NCBI GenBank assembly: GCA_041308625.1
Contig: JBFZBB010000005.1
Location: 8,798 to 72,797 of the forward strand
Length of the DNA stretch: 64,000 nt
Reading direction: 5' to 3'
Source: a bacterium
GTDB taxonomy: Bacteria; Patescibacteriota; Minisyncoccia; Minisyncoccales; Minisyncoccaceae
Positions 5,363 through 14,678 of this stretch are shown piece by piece (the stretch's first letter is position 1; each line of letters starts with the position of its first letter). A program made the translations under genes and the position numbers. The notes below the pieces were generated by a model. That model was not told the DNA's origin. It searched no databases and worked only from the letters and a program-made list of their open reading frames with translations.

Positions 5363-6910
5363 TTATTTTATACTTGTTAAGCCAATATTGTTTCTTTTTG
5401 CATTATCAAAATCACCAATATATGCCCACCATTGTTGAGGAATATTTTGCATCCACCAAGTTTTATATTTTAGTCCACCATCATTGTCACATGTGCTTCC
5501 TGCCCAAGTATGACAGCTTATACTAACACTCGAACCACCACAATATGATAAAACAGATGCTTCATTTGTCCAATCATATTCATGACTAGAACAACTTGAC
5601 ATTACATTAGGAGGACAATGAGTCCAACCACAACCAAAAGGCTCAGATCCAGTACCAACAAATTCATTCCAAAAAACATTATAGTTAACATGACCAAAAA
5701 TTGCTTCTATTTGATGAGTATGATTTTCTATTACCTCGGGAACCCCTCTTGTATAATTATAATGATAAACCGTATATGTTTTAGAATAAACGGGCATATC
5801 ATTTAAACGATAACTATTACTAATATTTCCATAAGGACCAGCCATATTAGACTCATTAAGACTTGTGTTGGGTGTATGATAACCCCAAATCCATATTTCT
5901 TTAACACCTTTATTTTCTATCCAATCTTTTCCATTTATGCTTTGAATGATTTTATTATAATCATAATCAGCACCATAAGATGTTTTGTTTTTAATTGTTG
6001 GCATTGGTTCTAAATACTCAACAGTTCCAACAATTTCATAATCCAAACTTTGAATAGAATTTACATCTTTATAACCATATTGTTTTGAACCATTTTCTAA
6101 AACAGAAATCGCTTCTTTATTAAAAGAATTAACTTTTTGACGCATAGCATCTAAAGAATCCCAACCTGAAGATAACCAATAACAGTCTCCTGTTAATTTT
6201 TTATCAATTAATCCATTTTTATCTAAAGGAAAATATTTAACCACTAAAACAGGTATTTTGTATTTTTCGTTAGAAATTATTTGTTTTTTTTGAGCTAAAC
6301 AATTTTCATTAGTTCCTTTATTTTCTCCTAAACATGTCCAATTCCAAGGACCAGATCCAGTAATATTAGACGCTGTTCCAGTTGAACATAAATTATTTGT
6401 TGGAATTGATTCCAAAACTTGATTATTAGAAGAACCACATTTTCCGTTAATAGGAGTGGCTTGACTTTTTAAAACAGAACAATTAGAGACAATTGTTGAT
6501 CCGAATTTACACGACCAAGTATACTGGTTTTGATTTTCAGAAATATTGGCAACTGTTCCAAGAGTACATAATCCAGTATTAGGAATACTAGAAAAAGATT
6601 GATCAGGAGAAAAACCACAATATTTATTCGTAGAAACATTGTTTGATTGTGTTTTTTCAGCTAAACACCAATCTGAATTTATAGAGCTAAATTTTGACCC
6701 ATCAAGACATTTCCATTTCCAGCCAGATGCTTTAAAGCTAGAATAAACTGAACTAAAAGCATAAACTCTACCATTAGAGCATAAATCAGGAGAACGACTT
6801 GTTAAACTATCAAAGCTTTTACCATTAGCTAAACCACAGTTATCTGCAGCAAAAACAAAGCTAATTGATAAAGTAGAGATAAACATTACTAAAAATAATA
6901 CTTTTTTCAT
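5363..6910 (-). CDS. secreted protein with three Cys-rich N-terminal repeats and a large uncharacterised C-terminal domain
   Basis: Signal peptide MKKVLFLVMFISTLSISFVFA from ATG at 6910, preferred over the upstream start at 6967. Three CG..(N/S)..F.S.P...LC..G........W.W.C modules follow. Confidence 0.6.
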   Translation of the reverse strand: MKKVLFLVMFISTLSISFVFAADNCGLANGKSFDSLTSRSPDLCSNGRVYAFSSVYSSFKASGWKWKCLDGSKFSSINSDWCLAEKTQSNNVSTNKYCGFSPDQSFSSIPNTGLCTLGTVANISENQNQYTWSCKFGSTIVSNCSVLKSQATPINGKCGSSNNQVLESIPTNNLCSTGTASNITGSGPWNWTCLGENKGTNENCLAQKKQIISNEKYKIPVLVVKYFPLDKNGLIDKKLTGDCYWLSSGWDSLDAMRQKVNSFNKEAISVLENGSKQYGYKDVNSIQSLDYEIVGTVEYLEPMPTIKNKTSYGADYDYNKIIQSINGKDWIENKGVKEIWIWGYHTPNTSLNESNMAGPYGNISNSYRLNDMPVYSKTYTVYHYNYTRGVPEVIENHTHQIEAIFGHVNYNVFWNEFVGTGSEPFGCGWTHCPPNVMSSCSSHEYDWTNEASVLSYCGGSSVSISCHTWAGSTCDNDGGLKYKTWWMQNIPQQWWAYIGDFDNAKRNNIGLTSIK

Positions 6911-7211
6911 ACACATATTGACAAAATTAATTATTATTTTATTATTGTTTGCCTCAATACGGTACAATATAATGAATTATTTGTCAATATCTGTTTTCCC
7001 CTAACCAAAATCAGTTTTTACATAGTTTTTAAATAAGAAAGCCTTATTTAAACCATGTCTTAAAAATCAAATTATAAATATTAATCTTTTGAGTCTATTT
7101 TTTGTCAAAAAACACAATCAAGAATTCTTATTTAAGATTGAATTATTATACCATAAACCAAAGAAAAATTGGCCTTTGATTTACTCAATTTGCTAAATAA
7201 TGTAAAACCCG

Positions 7212-8075
7212 TTACTCTTTGTTTCCAGCTAAATTATTGATTAGTATAGCAGTTCTTTGATTATATTTTTGACTATTAATTTCATGATTAACCAATAATT
7301 TATTTAATCCAGAATAATAGGTTTGTTGAATTTGAGAAGAAGGGACAGCTTTATCGTATAGACGAACTTCGTCAATCAAACCAAGAAAACCTTCATTAGG
7401 GACAGCGATATCAGCTATACCAATATATAAACTGTTGGTAACAGAAGAAACAATTGATCCGCTTAATGTCGTCTGTGTCGCAACTACCCCATTAACATGT
7501 ATTTTCATATTTCCAACCCCTCCGTCTTTATTATAAGTACCAACAACATGATTCCAATTATTAAATGGTAAATCATTAGGAGTTATTAAAGTGCCAACAC
7601 CAGATAAAGCAAACCTAAACTTATTATCACCTTGGTTTCCACTTATCACATATCTCCAATATTTACTGATAATATTTGGGTAAAGTTTTGTTTGATTGGT
7701 TGAAGTTTTAATCCATGCTTCCATTGTAATACTTTCCGTGATAATCTGTTCATCTTGATGAGAAACAGTAATATAGTCTCCACTAGAATCAAAACTGAGA
7801 CAGGACCCATAAACACAGTCATTAGATGCTAAAGCATTGGTTATTATGCCATTATTTAAGCCCCAGCTATCATTAGCGTTTCCATCAAGCTTCCACTCTG
7901 CAACCAAATTCATCAATAGCGAATTCCTCAAAGAATTAGAAAAAGCTTTGCTTTTAGTCATGTTAGTATTAATTGTAAAAGAATTCATTGAAACAATAAT
8001 AAAAGCAGAAAGAATACCAACTACTACTATTACAATTAAAATCTCGATCAAAGTAAATGCTAATTTTTTATTCAT
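7212..8075 (-). CDS. type IV pilin-like protein with LamG/concanavalin-like domain
   Basis: Prepilin class III signal MNKKLAFTLIEILIVIVVVGILSAF. C-terminal LamG-type motif LIDEVRLYDKAVPSSQI. Confidence 0.75.
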   Translation of the reverse strand: MNKKLAFTLIEILIVIVVVGILSAFIIVSMNSFTINTNMTKSKAFSNSLRNSLLMNLVAEWKLDGNANDSWGLNNGIITNALASNDCVYGSCLSFDSSGDYITVSHQDEQIITESITMEAWIKTSTNQTKLYPNIISKYWRYVISGNQGDNKFRFALSGVGTLITPNDLPFNNWNHVVGTYNKDGGVGNMKIHVNGVVATQTTLSGSIVSSVTNSLYIGIADIAVPNEGFLGLIDEVRLYDKAVPSSQIQQTYYSGLNKLLVNHEINSQKYNQRTAILINNLAGNKE

Positions 8076-9842: not shown

Positions 9843-10096
9843 TATAAAAGCTCCCCTGTACGGTCTTGGACTATTTCTATCCAATAACCGTAAGGGTTAA
9901 TTAACTAATAGCTTGATTATAAAATACTAGTAGATGGTCGGATAGTTCTTGAGGGAAAACGAGACAAATGAAACAATATAGGGGTCTTATTTCTTATTTT
10001 AAAATCTTGACAAAATAACATAATATTGTAATGTTAAAGCGTTAAAAGCCGTACCGCTTGGGTTCGGCAAAGTTCATTCACAAAGAGCGTGCTATT

Positions 10097-10648
10097 ATGA
10101 AAGAAGAAGGATTGCTTATCCACTTTAAAAACAAATCGTTTAAGGCCGAAATCGGCTGGAGTAACGGAAAGATGATCGAACTTACGCCGGTGGTCTGCGA
10201 TGAACAACCGTTCGGAAATTGCGGCATCGGACTGATGCATCATGAAATCGTCTTGCAGATGTGGGGCTTAGGTGGTCCCAGAGACTTAATCACCAGTTGG
10301 CGAGCTACCGAAATCGTTCGCCACTTTACCGTAATTGATAACTATACTCTGTCCAAAACTTTCTACGCCGGCCGGCGCTACAAGCAATGGAATAACGAAG
10401 AGAAAAAGAAGTATCTCGATCCGGTAATCGTGGTAATCGGCCAAGAGCTGTATGACAAAATCATGTCAATGCCTATCCCGGAAAAAATCATCCGGGCAAT
10501 TCTCGACAATCAGGATCTCGACTATTGTCCAGACACCTTTCCGATCGAAGACGAAATCAAGGCTGGAACGGTAAAGTGGCGACAAGAATTCACCATTGTG
10601 GACATAAAAAACCCTAAAAAAAGCACCTTTTTCCGCTTATTCAAATGA
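10097..10648 (+). CDS. hypothetical protein in a G+C-richer islet
   Basis: Intact ORF on the opposite strand to its neighbours. A TTGACA-N16-TAATGT promoter-like site lies at 10007-10034, and a strong terminator overlaps the stop. I recognise no family. Confidence 0.55.
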   Translation: MKEEGLLIHFKNKSFKAEIGWSNGKMIELTPVVCDEQPFGNCGIGLMHHEIVLQMWGLGGPRDLITSWRATEIVRHFTVIDNYTLSKTFYAGRRYKQWNNEEKKKYLDPVIVVIGQELYDKIMSMPIPEKIIRAILDNQDLDYCPDTFPIEDEIKAGTVKWRQEFTIVDIKNPKKSTFFRLFK

Positions 10649-10663
10649 ATAAGCGATTTTTTA
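10634..10663 (+). terminator. rho-independent terminator
   Basis: Perfect 10-bp inverted repeat cgcttattca/tgaataagcg enclosing the TGA stop, followed by tttttt. Confidence 0.7.
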
Positions 10664-10699: not shown

Positions 10700-11005
10700 T
10701 GGCTCCGGCGGTAGGATTCGAACCTACAACCTAATGCTTACATCTACCCTAATATTTCTAATAGGCATGGACTATATCATCACCCTTTGAATTAAAGGGG
10801 CGAGGCGCTTCCCACTCATTTCTAAGCAGTACTCCCATAAGGGATAGTCTCTGAACCTTCCTGAAATATTTCAGGCTTGGCTGCGGATTGCCATAAGTAT
10901 TAAGCTTTTAGGTTTCCCGCAATTCACCTCGTTTTTCAATCTCGATTACTCGAGAAAGCTGCAAGTATTTTACAGGCATCCGCGCTACCATTGCGCCACG
11001 CCGGA
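10700..11005 (-). tRNA. tRNA-Asn(GUU) interrupted by a group I intron; exons 11005..10972 and 10740..10700
   Basis: Exon 1 is TCCGGCG-TG-GCGC-AATGGTA-GCGC-G-GATGC-CTGT. Exon 2 is TAA-GCATT-AGGTT-GTAGG-TTCGAAT-CCTAC-CGCCGGA-G-CCA. Spliced, this gives a canonical cloverleaf with anticodon loop CUGUUAA, a 5-nt variable loop, U1-A72 and G73, as in E. coli tRNA-Asn. Confidence 0.85.
10741..10971 (-). mobile_element. group I self-splicing intron (IC3-like, tRNA-type), 231 nt, no internal ORF
   Basis: Core elements resemble the Azoarcus/Anabaena tRNA introns: GGGAAACCTAA, TATGGCAATCCGCAGCCAAGCC and GGAAGGTTCAGAGACTA...ATAGTCC. The 5' exon ends in U and pairs CUGU/GCAG with a U-G wobble (P1). The intron ends in G. 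Confidence 0.85.
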
Positions 11006-11034
11006 ATATGTTAAACAATATAATATATATACCT

Positions 11035-11697
11035 TTAATTGAGTAAACCGTCAACCCATCCTATTATTTTTCTGTGCAATAAAGCATCTGTTATTTTAAT
11101 CCTAAAAACTCCGTAACTATGCTTTTTTTTTCTTAATCTATTTTTATTATTTTTAACTATATAACTTTTTGTAAATTGAGATAATGATATTTTTGTCAAC
11201 CTTGACCAAAAAACCTTAGCTTTTTTCTCATTTAAATCATCGTGAATGTATAAGCTTCCTCTAAATTTTTCCGTTGGAACATTACAAAACTCTTTAAACC
11301 AGCTCATCATAAATTTAACCATTTGAGGATCAGTGTTTACAAAAGATATATCTCTATCTGTTTTTCCACCTTCCCCAGAATAAATGGCTATTCCAGCAAT
11401 AAACCTATCTCTTTTACTTAGTTTGCTTACTTCTTTTTTGCCTTGCTCGTTGAGTTCTTTAGTGATTTTTTCTCTTTTTTTTATTTTATTTTGAGCTGCT
11501 ATTATACTTCCTCTTAAATTTCCTGTTTTTTTATTTAAATATAATTTTTTAAGCTGATCTTTGTTTAGCTTAATATCTCTAACCCAAATACTAACAGAAG
11601 ATAAAGAAACGTTTAACTTCTTTTTTATCTCTTTGATAGATAAACCTCTTTTTCTTAACTCTCTTGCCTTGATTTTTAAATCTAATTTTCCTTTCAT
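11035..11697 (-). CDS. HTH protein with a possible single LAGLIDADG-like endonuclease domain
   Basis: N-terminal HTH: RGLSIKEIKKKLNVSLSSVSIWVRD. Central region: RFIAGIAIYSGEGGKTDRDISFVNTDPQMVKFMMSWF, which resembles a LAGLIDADG helix plus the following strand. Start at ATG 11697. The family assignment is tentative. Confidence 0.4.
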   Translation of the reverse strand: MKGKLDLKIKARELRKRGLSIKEIKKKLNVSLSSVSIWVRDIKLNKDQLKKLYLNKKTGNLRGSIIAAQNKIKKREKITKELNEQGKKEVSKLSKRDRFIAGIAIYSGEGGKTDRDISFVNTDPQMVKFMMSWFKEFCNVPTEKFRGSLYIHDDLNEKKAKVFWSRLTKISLSQFTKSYIVKNNKNRLRKKKHSYGVFRIKITDALLHRKIIGWVDGLLN

Positions 11698-11740
11698 TAA
11701 AAATATTATCTCATTTCGAACCAAGAAAGTCAAGTTACAA

Positions 11741-12970
11741 TTAATACCCTGCCAACTTCTTTAAATCTTTATGCTGTCTAATCTTTTCAATTGCTTTAGC
11801 TTCAATCTGTCTAATTCTTTCTCTGGTTACACTAAACTCTTGTCCCACTTCTTCTAAGGTATGCATTACTCCGTCATCTAAACCAAATCTCATTGAAATA
11901 ATTCTTTTTTCTCTGTCTGTTAAATCTTTAAATATTTCTTCTAAATGCTCTCTTAATAATGTTCTTCCTGCTTGAACTGCTGGAGATTCAATCTTTTCGT
12001 CTTTAATAAACTCACCCAAAACACTATCTTTGTCATCTTCTCCTACTGGAGTTTCTAAAGATACTGCTTTTTGAGCAATCCTTTCTAAATGTCTAACTTT
12101 AGCAACTTCTAGCCCCATTTCAGCTGCAATTTCTTCATCTAATGGTTCTCTGTCTAAATCTTGTAATAATCTTCTCTTAGCTTGAGTATATTTAGTCAAG
12201 GTTTCAATCATATGAACTGGAATCCTAATTGTTCTTGCTTGATCAGCTAAAGCTCTGGTAATTGTTTGTCTAATCCACCAGGTAGCATAAGTAGAGAACT
12301 TATACCCCTTTCTCCAATCAAACTTTTCTACTGCTCTAAACAATCCAAGGTTTCCTTCTTGAATTAGATCTAATAAAGTTAAATTGGGAGATCTACCAAT
12401 ATACTTTTTAGCAATTGAAACAACAAGCCTAAGATTGGCTTCTGCTAAATTTCTTTTTGCCTCTTCATCTCCTGCTTCAATCTTTCTAGCAAGCTCTTTT
12501 TCTTCTCTAGCAGTAATAGGAGAAATCTTTCCTATTTCTTTTAAATATGATTGGACAGAATCAACCTTGCTTCCAGCAAAGCTTTTCTTCTTTTTAATAG
12601 CTTTATCATCAAAATCCAAATATCCCTTTGAATCTTTAATTTCAATTCCTTCTTTTTCTAAAACAGTAAACATGTTTTCTACTTCTAAAACATTGTCTTC
12701 GATATTGGGAAAATATGATAAAATTTCAGAAAAAGTAACAAAGCCTCTTGTTTTGGCTTTTTTAATTAACCCGTCTAACGCTTCTTCAGTTATGACTGAC
12801 TTGGCTTTCCTTTTCTTCTTCTTGGGTTTCACTGGCTTTACTGGCTTTTTCTTCGCTACTTTCTTGACCGGCTTCTTCTTTACTACCTTCTTCTTTGCCA
12901 CCACTTTCTTCTTTGGTTTCACCTGCTTTTTCTTCTTTAATGGTTGCTTTTTCTTTGTTTTTTTCTTCAT
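11741..12970 (-). CDS. rpoD: RNA polymerase primary sigma factor (sigma-70) with a poly-lysine N-terminal extension
   Basis: Region 2 has [38 protein letters not shown]. Region 3 is present. Region 4 has [23 protein letters not shown]. Confidence 0.9.
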
Positions 12971-14678
12971 ATTTTATTAAATTCTTAAATTCTTCTAATA
13001 GCACTTTTACTTTAGCAGAATCTCCTTGTTTTTCCAACTCCCTAATTTCTAGGTGAAGATTATGCTGTTTTTCTTTAATTGTTAAATTTTCTATTTCTAA
13101 AATGCACATTTTTAGCTCTTCCTCTTCTTCTAACTCTTCAATTACCTCTGATTTAAGAAAAATATAGTTAAGAAAATTAATATTGTCCTCAAATTCTTGT
13201 TTTAGCTCTTCAAAAGTAATCTCTTTTTTATCCTTAATCTTTTCTAGTATTTCTTTAATAGGAAAAGAAAAAAAGGAAAAGTCATTAATTAAATCAATTC
13301 TACTTCTTTCTTTTAAAACAAGAGCTAATACTTTTTCTTCAATCATTTGACGTCTTGTTTTTTTATCAATCATACATTCTTCTTTTTTATGTTCTTGTTT
13401 TTGAATATTTATCTTTTTAATTTCTAACCTAATATCATCTTCTTTACTTTTTAAAACATCAGCTAATTTTTGAATCCAATAAGATTGCTCTACTGAGTTT
13501 TCCATTTTTTTAACTCGAGGCAAAAAATCTTTTAATATCTTTTTTTTATCCTCGACTGAATTGGGGTTTCTGTTGTTTAAAGCCAAATTAAAGAAAAATT
13601 CTGAAATTGGCTTTGACTCTTCAATCATTTTTTTCCATGCCTCTTCTCCTTCTTTTAAAATAATATCGGCTGGATCTTTGTCTTCACTTCTTGGAATAAC
13701 TTTTATTTCAAAGTCGTCAGCCATTTCAATTGCTTTTTCAGTAGCCTTATTACCGGCCGAATCCATATCAAAGGCTAATATTAATTTCTTAGAATACCTT
13801 TTAATAATTTCTAAATGTAAATTAGTTAAGGCTGTTCCAGAAGTAGCAATGCAATTATCAATTCCTGATTGATGAGACATAATACAATCAACATTACCTT
13901 CTACCAAAACACAAAAGTCTTTTCTTCTTATCTCTATCTTAGCTTTATCAATTCCATAAAGAGCTTTGCTTTTATCATAAAGAATAGTAGCTGGACTATT
14001 TAAATATTTTGCTTCATCTTTATCGTCTTTGCCAAAAATTCTACCAGTAAAACCAATGATCTCTGAATTAAAACCAGTAATAGGAAACATTATTCTTCCT
14101 CTAAATCTATCAAACATCTTTTCTTTTTGAATCGCTAAACCAGCCTTAACAATATCCCCTCTATTAAAATCTCTACTAACAAGAAAATCGCTCAATCCTT
14201 GCCAAGTATCAGGAGCATATCCTATTCTCCATTTTTTAATTGTTTCTTCTTTTAATCCTCTACCCAGTAAATAATCTTTAGCTTCTGAGCCTTTTTTGCT
14301 TTTCTCTAATTGATACTCAAAAAACAAACAAGCTTTTTCTGTTAAATCTAAAAGTATTTGTCTTTGTGTTTTTTCTTCTTTCCATTTTTTACTGTGCTTT
14401 AATTCAACTCCAGCCCTATCAGCTAATAGCTTTAAAGCATCATAAAATTCTATACCCTCAATTTTCATTACAAACTTAAAAATATCTCCTCCTTCATTGC
14501 ACCCTCCAAAACAATGCCAAATTTGCCTAGAAGGAGAAACAAAAAAAGAAGCACTTTTCTCTTCATGAAAAGGACATCTGGCTCTGTAATTAACTCCAGC
14601 TTTTTCTAGTTTAATGTAATTAGAAATTACATCAACTATATTTAGTCTTGATTTTATTTCTTCTAGTTCTGAATTCAT
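12786..14678 (-). CDS. dnaG: DNA primase
   Basis: Zinc finger [15 protein letters not shown]...WHCFGC. TOPRIM motifs VLVEGNVD and [10 protein letters not shown]. The 3' end overlaps rpoD by 185 nt in another frame. Confidence 0.9.

What the first reader, a model, noticed from the sequence alone, without database searches (positions are those of the whole stretch)
10700..11005. tRNA-Asn(GUU) gene split by a 231-nt group I intron in the anticodon loop
Seen in sequence: the two exon halves fold into a canonical class I tRNA only if 10741-10971 is removed. Under the group I rules (5' exon ends in U paired to G in P1, intron ends in G), the splice junction gives anticodon loop CUGU|UAA, so the anticodon is GUU. 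G73 and U1-A72 fit Asn identity. The intron core (GGGAAACCTAA, TATGGCAATCCGCAGCCAAGCC, GGAAGGTTCAGAGACTA, ATAGTCC) closely resembles the IC3 introns of bacterial tRNA genes. Established knowledge: the classic bacterial cases are tRNA-Leu(UAA) and tRNA-fMet in cyanobacteria, and tRNA-Arg and tRNA-Ile in proteobacteria. An Asn(GUU) host with insertion between anticodon positions 35 and 36 is unusual to my knowledge.
Basis: partly seen in the sequence, partly recalled or inferred. Interest (0 to 1): 0.75.

Follow-up and report, generated by a model that had tools for sequence, protein, structure and literature searches.

The report
Self-splicing intron inside a tRNA-Asn gene
The asparagine tRNA gene in this window, probably from an uncultivated candidate-phyla-radiation (CPR) bacterium, is interrupted in its anticodon loop by a 231-base group I intron; the reading is correct, but this intron type was catalogued in 2020 and is common in such bacteria.

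Summary
Exon 1 is 11005-10972, the intron 10971-10741 (231 nt) and exon 2 10740-10700, with CCA encoded. Rfam Intron_gpI scores 88.2 bits (gathering 50) and pairs U(-1) with G in P1. The intron ends in G. In silico splicing gives a canonical 75-nt tRNA-Asn(GUU) with loop CUGU|UAA. The alternative Thr-type junction would need omega = A.

The host and site are not new. Williams 2020 (bioRxiv 10.1101/2020.01.27.920355) lists 'Asn.4Ug' among 17 new intron-split tRNA types. About half are Patescibacteria (CPR); the rest come from at least eight other phyla.

Covariation across 62 homologues supports P1-P6a, P7.1, P7.2, P8 and P9, and 58 genomes support P3. P7 is invariant. The closest relatives are Paceibacterota-type genomes that share dnaG-rpoD-HTH-tRNA-Asn synteny. 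All three metagenome relatives fetched independently of the intron also carry it. Longer family members encode an HNH endonuclease in the P1 loop; this copy has no ORF.

Verdict: a real and probably functional ribozyme, and a new member of a known kind. Interest is low.

The parts
10972..11005 (-). tRNA-Asn exon 1 (positions 1-35: acceptor 5' strand, D arm, anticodon stem 5' strand, loop C32 U33 G34 U35)
   Evidence: ARAGORN -i and the spliced sequence; sequence
10741..10971 (-). Group I intron, 231 nt, no ORF, IC3-like core with a two-hairpin insertion between P7 and P3'
   Evidence: Rfam RF00028 88.2 bits; models R1 138.3 bits and R2 121.1 bits; no credible intron ORF
10700..10740 (-). tRNA-Asn exon 2 (U36 A37 A38, anticodon stem 3' strand, variable loop, T arm, acceptor 3' strand, G73, encoded CCA)
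10959..10975 (-). P1: exon C32-U35 plus intron A1-A2 (10975-10970) pair with the guide sequence UUGCAG (10964-10959); U35(10972).G10(10962) is the 5' splice-site wobble
   Evidence: Rfam alignment; pair counts UG 46 of 62, GC 61 of 62; MFE fold
10940..10955 (-). P2 hairpin, 6 bp, GUAA tetraloop
   Evidence: All 6 pairs show changes on both sides, 97.8% paired; MFE fold
10925..10931 (-). P3 5' strand (pairs with 10801-10807)
   Evidence: 86-91% paired over 58 genomes with UA/CG/GC, CG/GC/UG/AU and GC/AU exchanges; MFE fold
10882..10921 (-). P4-P5 domain: P4 UGCGGG/UCCGCA, J4/5 AAA, and P5 with a tetraloop-receptor-like CCUAAA...UAUGG
   Evidence: P4 98.6% paired with 4 pairs changed on both sides; receptor motif read from sequence
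10855..10881 (-). P6 (GCC/GGU) and P6a hairpin
   Evidence: P6 99.5% and P6a 94% paired; all pairs show changes on both sides
10846..10851 (-). P7 5' strand GAGACU with bulged A (pairs with 10769-10773); site of the guanosine-binding pocket in group I introns
   Evidence: All 5 pairs invariant in 62 of 62 sequences; the G-binding role is inferred from established group I knowledge
10833..10844 (-). P7.1-like hairpin UCCC-UUAU-GGGA, inserted between P7 and P3'
   Evidence: 99.1% paired, all 4 pairs changed on both sides, present in about 28 of 62 homologues; MFE fold
10812..10829 (-). P7.2-like hairpin, 7 bp, GAAA tetraloop
   Evidence: 91.3% paired, all 7 pairs changed on both sides; compensatory changes in L133 and L013
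10801..10807 (-). P3 3' strand
10783..10799 (-). P8 hairpin
   Evidence: 72% paired in the model-based alignment, with changes on both sides at every pair; seen in the centroid fold. This is the weakest helix.
10769..10773 (-). P7 3' strand (AGUCC), preceded by the conserved J8/7 GAUGAUAU
10748..10765 (-). P9 hairpin with GAAA tetraloop (one U.U mismatch in this copy)
   Evidence: 93.7% paired, all 7 pairs changed on both sides; L133 restores the U.U to U-A
10741..10741 (-). Omega-G, last intron nucleotide
   Evidence: Sequence; G at this position in all 61 Asn introns tabulated

Best explanation
This is a functional tRNA-Asn(GUU) gene of a low-GC bacterium, probably Patescibacteria/Paceibacterota. 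A 231-nt ORF-less group I intron of the IC3-like bacterial-tRNA lineage interrupts it between anticodon positions 35 and 36. This is type 'Asn.4Ug' in Williams 2020. The proposed mechanism follows; the steps are inferred from group I chemistry and the anatomy is shown. The precursor is transcribed downstream of dnaG-rpoD-HTH. Loop nucleotides C32-U35 plus the first two intron bases pair with the internal guide UUGCAG to form P1, placing U35 in a U.G wobble. Exogenous guanosine bound in P7 attacks after U35. Omega-G (10741) then takes over the G site, and the 3'-OH of U35 attacks after omega-G. The exons are held together mainly by the tRNA anticodon stem GAUGC/GCAUU, because P10 is weak. Ligation yields the loop CUGUUAA. 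RNase P and normal 3' processing then complete the tRNA. The intron itself is immobile because it has no endonuclease gene. Related copies carry an HNH homing endonuclease gene in the P1 loop, which would account for how the family spread.
For: Rfam RF00028 scores 88.2 bits against a gathering score of 50, over the full model, with U(-1).G in P1. ARAGORN -i gives tRNA-Asn(gtt) with a 231-nt intron, and the spliced product is a canonical 75-nt tRNA with U1-A72, G73 and CCA. About 115 of 120 genome loci share the same junction. Covariation across 62 homologues gives 93.9% and 90.2% paired cells and 28/32 and 24/29 pairs with changes on both sides. The covariation scores are 0.612 and 0.358, against 0.176 and 0.098 in shuffles (0 of 500 reach them) and 0.03-0.13 for slid controls. 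P3 covaries. P7 is invariant. The MFE fold independently recovers P1-P6a, P7.1 and P7.2. In the close relatives L133 and L013, 7-8 helix changes are compensatory, and the core strands P3, P4 and P7 are unchanged. All three relatives found through the neighbouring HTH gene, not through the intron, carry the intron at the same place. An HNH ORF is present in long family members. The Asn.4Ug class is in the published seed alignment.
Against: There are no RNA data and no splicing assay, so catalysis is inferred. P10 is weak: only 3 bp, and shifted by one nucleotide. P9 has a U.U mismatch, and P8 is only 72% paired in the family alignment. The folding z-score is modest at -1.73. The model-based alignments are fitted to the structure and so lean towards it. 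The host taxon is inferred from best matches within an intron-selected set of loci. Whether a second, intron-free tRNA-Asn gene exists in the genome is unknown; there is none in this 64-kb window.
Confidence: 0.9

Rival explanations
1. The intron is a decayed, splicing-dead relic and the locus is a tRNA pseudogene; Asn decoding relies on another gene.
For: One U.U mismatch in P9 and a weak P10. No experimental data. Only 64 kb of the genome is visible.
Against: All core strands match a family consensus that is invariant or covarying in 62 homologues. The exons are intact and differ from relatives by only 2-4 positions, including a compensatory acceptor-stem change in L133 and L013. This copy is second of 62 by score for R1 and first for R2, although both models were seeded with it. 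The intron is kept at the syntenic site in all relatives examined.
Confidence: 0.05
2. The splice junction lies elsewhere and the mature tRNA has another anticodon, for example CU/...../UGUAA giving Thr(UGU) as ARAGORN calls many homologues, or CUGU/..../AAA giving Tyr.
For: ARAGORN called 45 homologous loci 'Thr' and a few 'Asp', 'Tyr', 'His' or 'Lys'. Many homologues end in GUG|UAA, which allows two U/G junctions.
Against: In the window the intron ends GAUG|UAA, so the Thr junction would need omega = A and would put U33 in a Watson-Crick U-A pair rather than a wobble. The tRNA body is Asn-like (U1-A72, G73, class I with a 5-nt variable loop), and so are the bodies of the loci called 'Thr'. 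Bacterial tRNA-Tyr is class II (established knowledge).
Confidence: 0.02
3. The intron is genuine but does not splice autonomously in vivo; it depends on a protein cofactor or chaperone. This variant of the main explanation does not exclude it.
For: P10 is weak. The extra P7.1/P7.2-like hairpins could be protein-binding or stabilising modules. Many group I introns need cofactors (established knowledge).
Against: Tetraloops are present in L2 (GUAA), L9 (GAAA) and L7.2 (GAAA), and P5 carries a receptor-like CCUAAA/UAUGG, as in the self-splicing Azoarcus and Anabaena tRNA introns (seed alignment). No intron-encoded maturase is present.
Confidence: 0.15

Closest known systems
'Asn.4Ug' group I introns of bacterial tRNA-Asn genes (Williams 2020, bioRxiv 10.1101/2020.01.27.920355; seed Pam37.Asn.4Ug)
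   Same: Same host tRNA, same insertion point after the fourth anticodon-loop nucleotide (CUGU/...g/UAA), U(-1) and omega-G, the same IC3-like core, and an insertion between P7 and P3'.
   Different: The seed uses the guide UGUA and has one long hairpin between P7 and P3'. The window copy uses UUGCAG and has two short hairpins. Sequence identity outside the core is low.
Azoarcus tRNA-Ile(CAU) and cyanobacterial tRNA-Leu(UAA) IC3 introns (classical self-splicing bacterial tRNA introns)
   Same: The core strings are near-identical. Window GAAUUGCGGGAAACCUAA matches Azoarcus AAAUUCGGCGAAACCUAAG. UAUGGCAAUCCGCAGCCAAG matches UAUGGCAACGCCGAGCCAAG. AAGGUUCAGAGACUA matches AAGGUGUAGAGACUA. AUAUAGUCC matches GCAUAGUCC. 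Both have a GNRA L2, a GAAA L9 and an anticodon-loop location.
   Different: Different host tRNA and loop position: 36/37 for Ile, 34/35 for Leu, 35/36 here. The classical introns lack the hairpins between P7 and P3'.
P7.1/P7.2 extensions of subgroup IA introns such as phage T4 td (comparison from my own knowledge; a lead, not a test)
   Same: Two hairpins sit in the same topological position, between the 5' strand of P7 and the 3' strand of P3.
   Different: The rest of the core here is IC3-like, not IA. Homology of the extensions was not tested.
ORF-bearing members of the same family (for example L011, L012, L038, L062, L107) that encode an HNH endonuclease
   Same: Same ribozyme and same insertion site.
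   Different: They carry a 100-120-aa HNH ORF in the P1 loop that reads through the guide sequence, P2, P3 and P4 and stops at the UAA of CCUAA in P5. The window copy lacks it.

Membership tests
Group I intron (Rfam RF00028) | Covariance-model score at or above the curated threshold | tested here: met
   88.2 bits against a gathering score of 50, E 3.7e-21, model positions 1-253 of 253
Group I intron (Rfam RF00028) | 5' splice site follows a U that forms a U.G wobble in P1 with an internal guide sequence | tested here: met
   U35 (10972) pairs with G10 (10962) in the Rfam alignment. The same column pair is U.G in 46 of 62 homologues. The 10 C-G cases are probably ORF-bearing long introns whose P1 5' strand was misaligned; this was not checked.
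Group I intron (Rfam RF00028) | Intron ends in omega-G | tested here: met
   G at 10741; G in all 61 tabulated Asn introns
Group I intron (Rfam RF00028) | Conserved core helices P3-P9, including the P3/P7 pseudoknot, supported by covariation | tested here: met
   P7 never varies, so it is consistent with the structure but not informative.
Group I intron (Rfam RF00028) | Guanosine-dependent two-step transesterification (self-splicing) | not testable with these tools
   Needs an in vitro splicing assay or RNA data
IC3-like bacterial tRNA intron lineage | Core sequence motifs shared with the Azoarcus tRNA-Ile and cyanobacterial tRNA-Leu introns | tested here: met
   Direct comparison of the window sequence with the seeds Aol6.Ile2.5Ug and Sel1.Leu.3Ug. 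This was done by eye, not by a subgroup-specific model.
IC3-like bacterial tRNA intron lineage | Located in the anticodon loop of a tRNA precursor, so that the anticodon stem holds the exons together | tested here: met
   The stem GAUGC/GCAUU flanks the intron.
IC3-like bacterial tRNA intron lineage | L9 GAAA tetraloop with an 11-nt-type receptor in P5, and a GNRA L2 | tested here: inconclusive
   L9 GAAA, L2 GUAA and P5 CCUAAA...UAUGG are present in the sequence. The receptor departs from the canonical CCUAAG, and docking cannot be tested.
Asn.4Ug type (Williams 2020) | Host is tRNA-Asn(GUU) | tested here: met
   ARAGORN on the spliced sequence; U1-A72, G73, class I
Asn.4Ug type (Williams 2020) | Insertion after loop nucleotide 4 (CUGU/.../UAA) with U(-1) and omega-G | tested here: met
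   naming rule and seed
Asn.4Ug type (Williams 2020) | Sequence and structure homology to other members | tested here: met
   Models R1 and R2 each hit all 60 other Asn loci at E <= 2.4e-05. The intron is 80% identical to L013, and the whole precursor is 94% identical to L131.

The most novel reading that the evidence does not exclude
The ORF-less intron sits in what may be the only tRNA-Asn gene of a reduced CPR genome, at an rpoD-linked locus where it has been inherited vertically across Paceibacterota-like lineages. If so, decoding of every Asn codon would depend on ribozyme splicing. Its two-hairpin insertion between P7 and P3' (in the P7.1/P7.2 position, otherwise typical of IA introns) would define an undescribed structural subclass of IC3-type tRNA introns.
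Probability: 0.3. Interest if true: 0.35.

Novelty: new member of a known kind. Interest (0 to 1): 0.2.

Why it matters
The main consequence is for annotation. Default tRNA finders miss this gene, so genomes of this kind appear to lack tRNA-Asn. ARAGORN with introns allowed often places the junction wrongly and calls homologues Thr, Asp, Tyr or His. Biologically, this adds one more instance to a large and little-publicised family of tRNA-Asn ribozymes in uncultivated bacteria. It does not open a new question.

Tried and rejected
1. An exact-sequence look-up of the RpoD ORF product to name the source genome found nothing. The listed ORF overlaps dnaG by 185 nt, and relatives align only from about residue 59, so the true start is probably further downstream.

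2. I considered that introns at CUGU might move among the four GUN (queuosine-family) tRNAs, because ARAGORN called Asp, Tyr and His among the hits. Inspection showed these are mis-placed junctions in tRNA-Asn genes. My data give no support for the idea, although Williams lists separate Tyr.4Ug and Asp.4Ug types.

3. For the 128-162 insertion I compared an outer stem (UCCC 128-131 with GGGA 159-162) against two local hairpins. Relatives covary as two hairpins, so I rejected the outer stem.

4. A single full-length covariance model seemed likely to exceed the calibration limit. I built two half-models and tested P3 across them by script.

5. The promoter and terminator scans were not informative: 6 promoter-like sites against 4.7 expected.

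6. Literature searches for 'tRNA-Asn' or 'tRNAAsn' with 'group I intron' returned only organellar or unrelated papers. The Mohanta 2017 cyanobacterial 'group I introns' of 22-49 nt concern other tRNAs and are too short to be group I.

Full report
**Observation.** The feature lies on the minus strand. Read as reverse complement, 11005-10972 is the 5' part of a tRNA (acceptor UCCGGCG, D arm GCGC-AAUGGUA-GCGC, anticodon stem GAUGC, then CUGU). Next, 10971-10741 is a 231-nt insert that ends in G. Finally, 10740-10700 reads UAA-GCAUU-AGGUU-GUAGG-UUCGAAU-CCUAC-CGCCGGA-G-CCA. Default ARAGORN and the Rfam tRNA model do not see the gene. ARAGORN with introns allowed reports tRNA-Asn(gtt), 75 nt, with a 231-nt intron at cctgt/taagc, and the in silico spliced sequence is called tRNA-Asn(gtt). 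Rfam Intron_gpI matches 10981-10748(-) over the whole model at 88.2 bits (gathering 50, E 3.7e-21). Its alignment puts the last exon U opposite G in P1.

**Junction.** With P1 formed as C32-G13, U33-A12, G34-C11, U35.G10, A1-U9 and A2-U8, the 5' splice site follows U35 (10972). A 7-nt loop then requires the 3' exon to start at U10740, which is preceded by G10741. The intron ends GAUG|UAA, so that junction would need omega = A and would place U33 in a Watson-Crick pair. The tRNA body (U1-A72, G73, 5-nt variable loop) is Asn-like. The anticodon is therefore GUU.

**Anatomy.** Intron base i sits at window position 10972 - i.
- P1: 10975-10970 with 10964-10959.
- P2: 10955-10940, GUAA loop.
- P3: 10931-10925 with 10807-10801.
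- P4-P5: 10921-10882, with J4/5 AAA and a receptor-like CCUAAA...UAUGG.
- P6 and P6a: 10881-10855.
- P7: 10851-10846 with 10773-10769.
- Two extra hairpins between P7 and P3': 10844-10833, and 10829-10812 with a GAAA loop.
- P8: 10799-10783.
- P9: 10765-10748, GAAA loop.
- Omega-G: 10741.

An unconstrained MFE fold recovers P1, P2, P3, P4, P5, P6, P6a and both extra hairpins, and the centroid also shows P8. The only ORFs that overlap the intron are 26 and 48 codons long. The 48-codon one is simply the conserved core read as protein.

**Relatives.** A pattern spanning J8/7-P7', P9, omega-G, UAA and the T arm hit the window once and hit none of 100 shuffles.
- ARAGORN -i called 59 of them Asn(GUU), all with CTGT/...G/TAA.
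- The 45 'Thr' calls and most of the 'Asp', 'Tyr', 'His' and 'Lys' calls are the same tRNA-Asn genes with the junction mis-placed. Their bodies read TCC...GGAGCCA and their introns end GTG|TAA.
- I therefore judge about 115 of the 120 to be the same kind.
- Going by record titles, about half are Patescibacteria/CPR. The rest include Acidobacteriota, Elusimicrobiota, Nitrospirota, Cyanobacteria, Ignavibacteriota, Methylomirabilota, Omnitrophota and 'delta'- and 'gamma-proteobacterial' MAGs.
- Intron lengths cluster at 196-361 nt and at 519-578 nt.

**Structure test.** I built two half-models (R1 and R2) from eight sequences with my hand-drawn structure and used them to align the window and 60 Asn loci.
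- 5' half: 93.9% of cells pair and 28 of 32 pairs show changes on both sides. The covariation score is 0.612, against 0.176 in shuffles (0 of 500 reach it) and 0.06-0.10 when partners are slid.
- 3' half: 90.2% pair and 24 of 29 pairs show changes on both sides. The score is 0.358 against 0.098.
- P7 is invariant in all 62 rows.
- P3, scored across the two alignments, is 86-91% paired with UA/CG/GC, CG/GC/UG/AU and GC/AU exchanges.
- These alignments are fitted to the structure and the sequences are related, so the numbers lean towards it. The slid controls and the number of distinct pair types still make the case strong.
- Among close relatives (L131 at 94%, L133 at 86% and L013 at about 80% identity), 7-8 helix changes per comparison in L133 and L013 are compensatory. 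P3, P4 and P7 are untouched. One exon change is a compensatory C-G to U-A swap in the acceptor stem.

**Context and host.** The window is 29.6% GC. Upstream on the same strand lie dnaG, rpoD and an HTH-like ORF. Nearby are rsgA and a pilin-like gene. The nearest locus, L013 (a Candidatus Paceibacterota MAG), has RpoD 82% and DnaG 57% identical, in the same order. About 25 CPR loci share the rpoD linkage. A metagenome search with the HTH protein, which is blind to the intron, found three relatives. All three have the intron-containing tRNA-Asn immediately downstream. This fits long vertical retention in the lineage, although three loci is a small sample.

**Mobility.** Most of the 519-578-nt family members encode a 100-120-aa protein with the CxxC...HH...CANCH motif. 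One scores above the Pfam HNH threshold (PF01844, E 2.3e-5). The ORF starts just after the 5' splice site, fills the P1 loop, reads through the guide sequence, P2, P3 and P4, and stops at the UAA of CCUAA in P5. The window copy has no such ORF, so it is not itself mobile by homing.

**Mechanism (inferred from established group I chemistry).** The precursor folds. Guanosine bound in P7 attacks after U35. Omega-G then replaces it, and U35's 3'-OH attacks after omega-G. P10 is weak here: A+2, A+3 and G+4 with U9, U8 and C7, shifted by one nucleotide. I infer that the anticodon stem aligns the exons, as is known for the Anabaena pre-tRNA-Leu (my own knowledge). The product has the loop CUGUUAA.

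**Comparison with what is known.** Williams (bioRxiv 2020, 10.1101/2020.01.27.920355) extended the four classical intron-split bacterial tRNA types to 21. His seed alignment contains Pam37.Asn.4Ug, and by his naming rule that is exactly this site. Lui et al. 2021 note that tRNAs in CPR genomes often carry group I introns and are hard to detect. The tRNAscan-SE 2.0 paper states that the program was not designed to detect such introns. The core strings match the Azoarcus and Synechococcus seeds closely. The window's intron is therefore a new member of a catalogued type. Its one mild distinction is the two-hairpin insertion between P7 and P3', which about 40% of the family shares.

**Verdict.** Interest is 0.2.

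Noticed in passing
L011, L012, L038, L062, L107, L029, L079, L001 (introns of 519-578 nt): Long versions of the same tRNA-Asn intron encode a 100-120-aa HNH endonuclease in the P1 loop. The ORF reads through the guide sequence, P2, P3 and P4 and ends at the UAA of the CCUAA receptor motif, giving a conserved C-terminus ...EKSGEFRET.
   Followed up: partly
window 10908-11054 (-): A 48-codon ORF ends ...IEIEKRGELRET*. It is the ribozyme core (J2/3-P3-P4-P5) read in the same frame as the HNH ORF tail of the long introns. It reflects RNA conservation and is not a gene.
   Followed up: yes
L004, L007, L008, L010, L016 and about 40 others; L014, L020, L035, L041, L061, L071, L072, L078, L106, L109: ARAGORN -i mis-places the junction and calls these tRNA-Asn genes Thr(UGU/CGU), Asp, Tyr, His or Lys. 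When the intron ends GUG|UAA, two U/G junctions are possible. This is a hazard for automatic annotation.
   Followed up: yes
L112 (CAYTFL010000170.1, labelled Candidatus Woesearchaeota archaeon): This 'archaeal' contig carries a bacterial RpoD 70% identical to the window's and matched the intron/tRNA scan pattern. It is probably a mis-binned CPR contig, like the Pacearchaeota case Williams mentions.
   Followed up: no
L121-L130 (IMG/VR contigs): Ten contigs classed as viral match the same intron/tRNA pattern. Most carry an intron-split tRNA that ARAGORN calls Asn or, with the usual junction ambiguity, Thr or Tyr; L124 gave no call and L127 and L129 gave other calls. At least two (L127, L128) have 11 or more tRNA genes. 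Phages may carry this intron, or these are mis-classified CPR genomes.
   Followed up: partly
L025 4661-4937; L125 1541-1819: Other intron-split tRNAs lie next to the intron-bearing tRNA-Asn gene. L025 has a tRNA-Leu(CAA) with a 207-nt intron that R1 and R2 also hit. L125 has a putative tRNA-Gln(UUG) with a 207-nt intron.
   Followed up: no
window 11035-14678 (-) and about 25 loci: The order dnaG - rpoD - (HTH-like ORF) - tRNA-Asn is conserved across many Patescibacteria. The listed rpoD ORF (11741-12970) overlaps dnaG by 185 nt, and relatives align only from about residue 59, so its true start is probably further downstream.
   Followed up: partly
window 7212-8075 (-): This ORF has an N-terminal prepilin methylation motif plus a Laminin_G_3/ConA-like domain, making it a pilin-like surface protein. 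The neighbouring 534-aa ORF 5363-6967 has no Pfam match.
   Followed up: no
window 10634-10655: A perfect 9-bp palindromic hairpin lies between the convergent ORF 10058-10648(+) and the 3' end of the tRNA. On the + strand it scores as a terminator. On the - strand the T-run is not adjacent.
   Followed up: no
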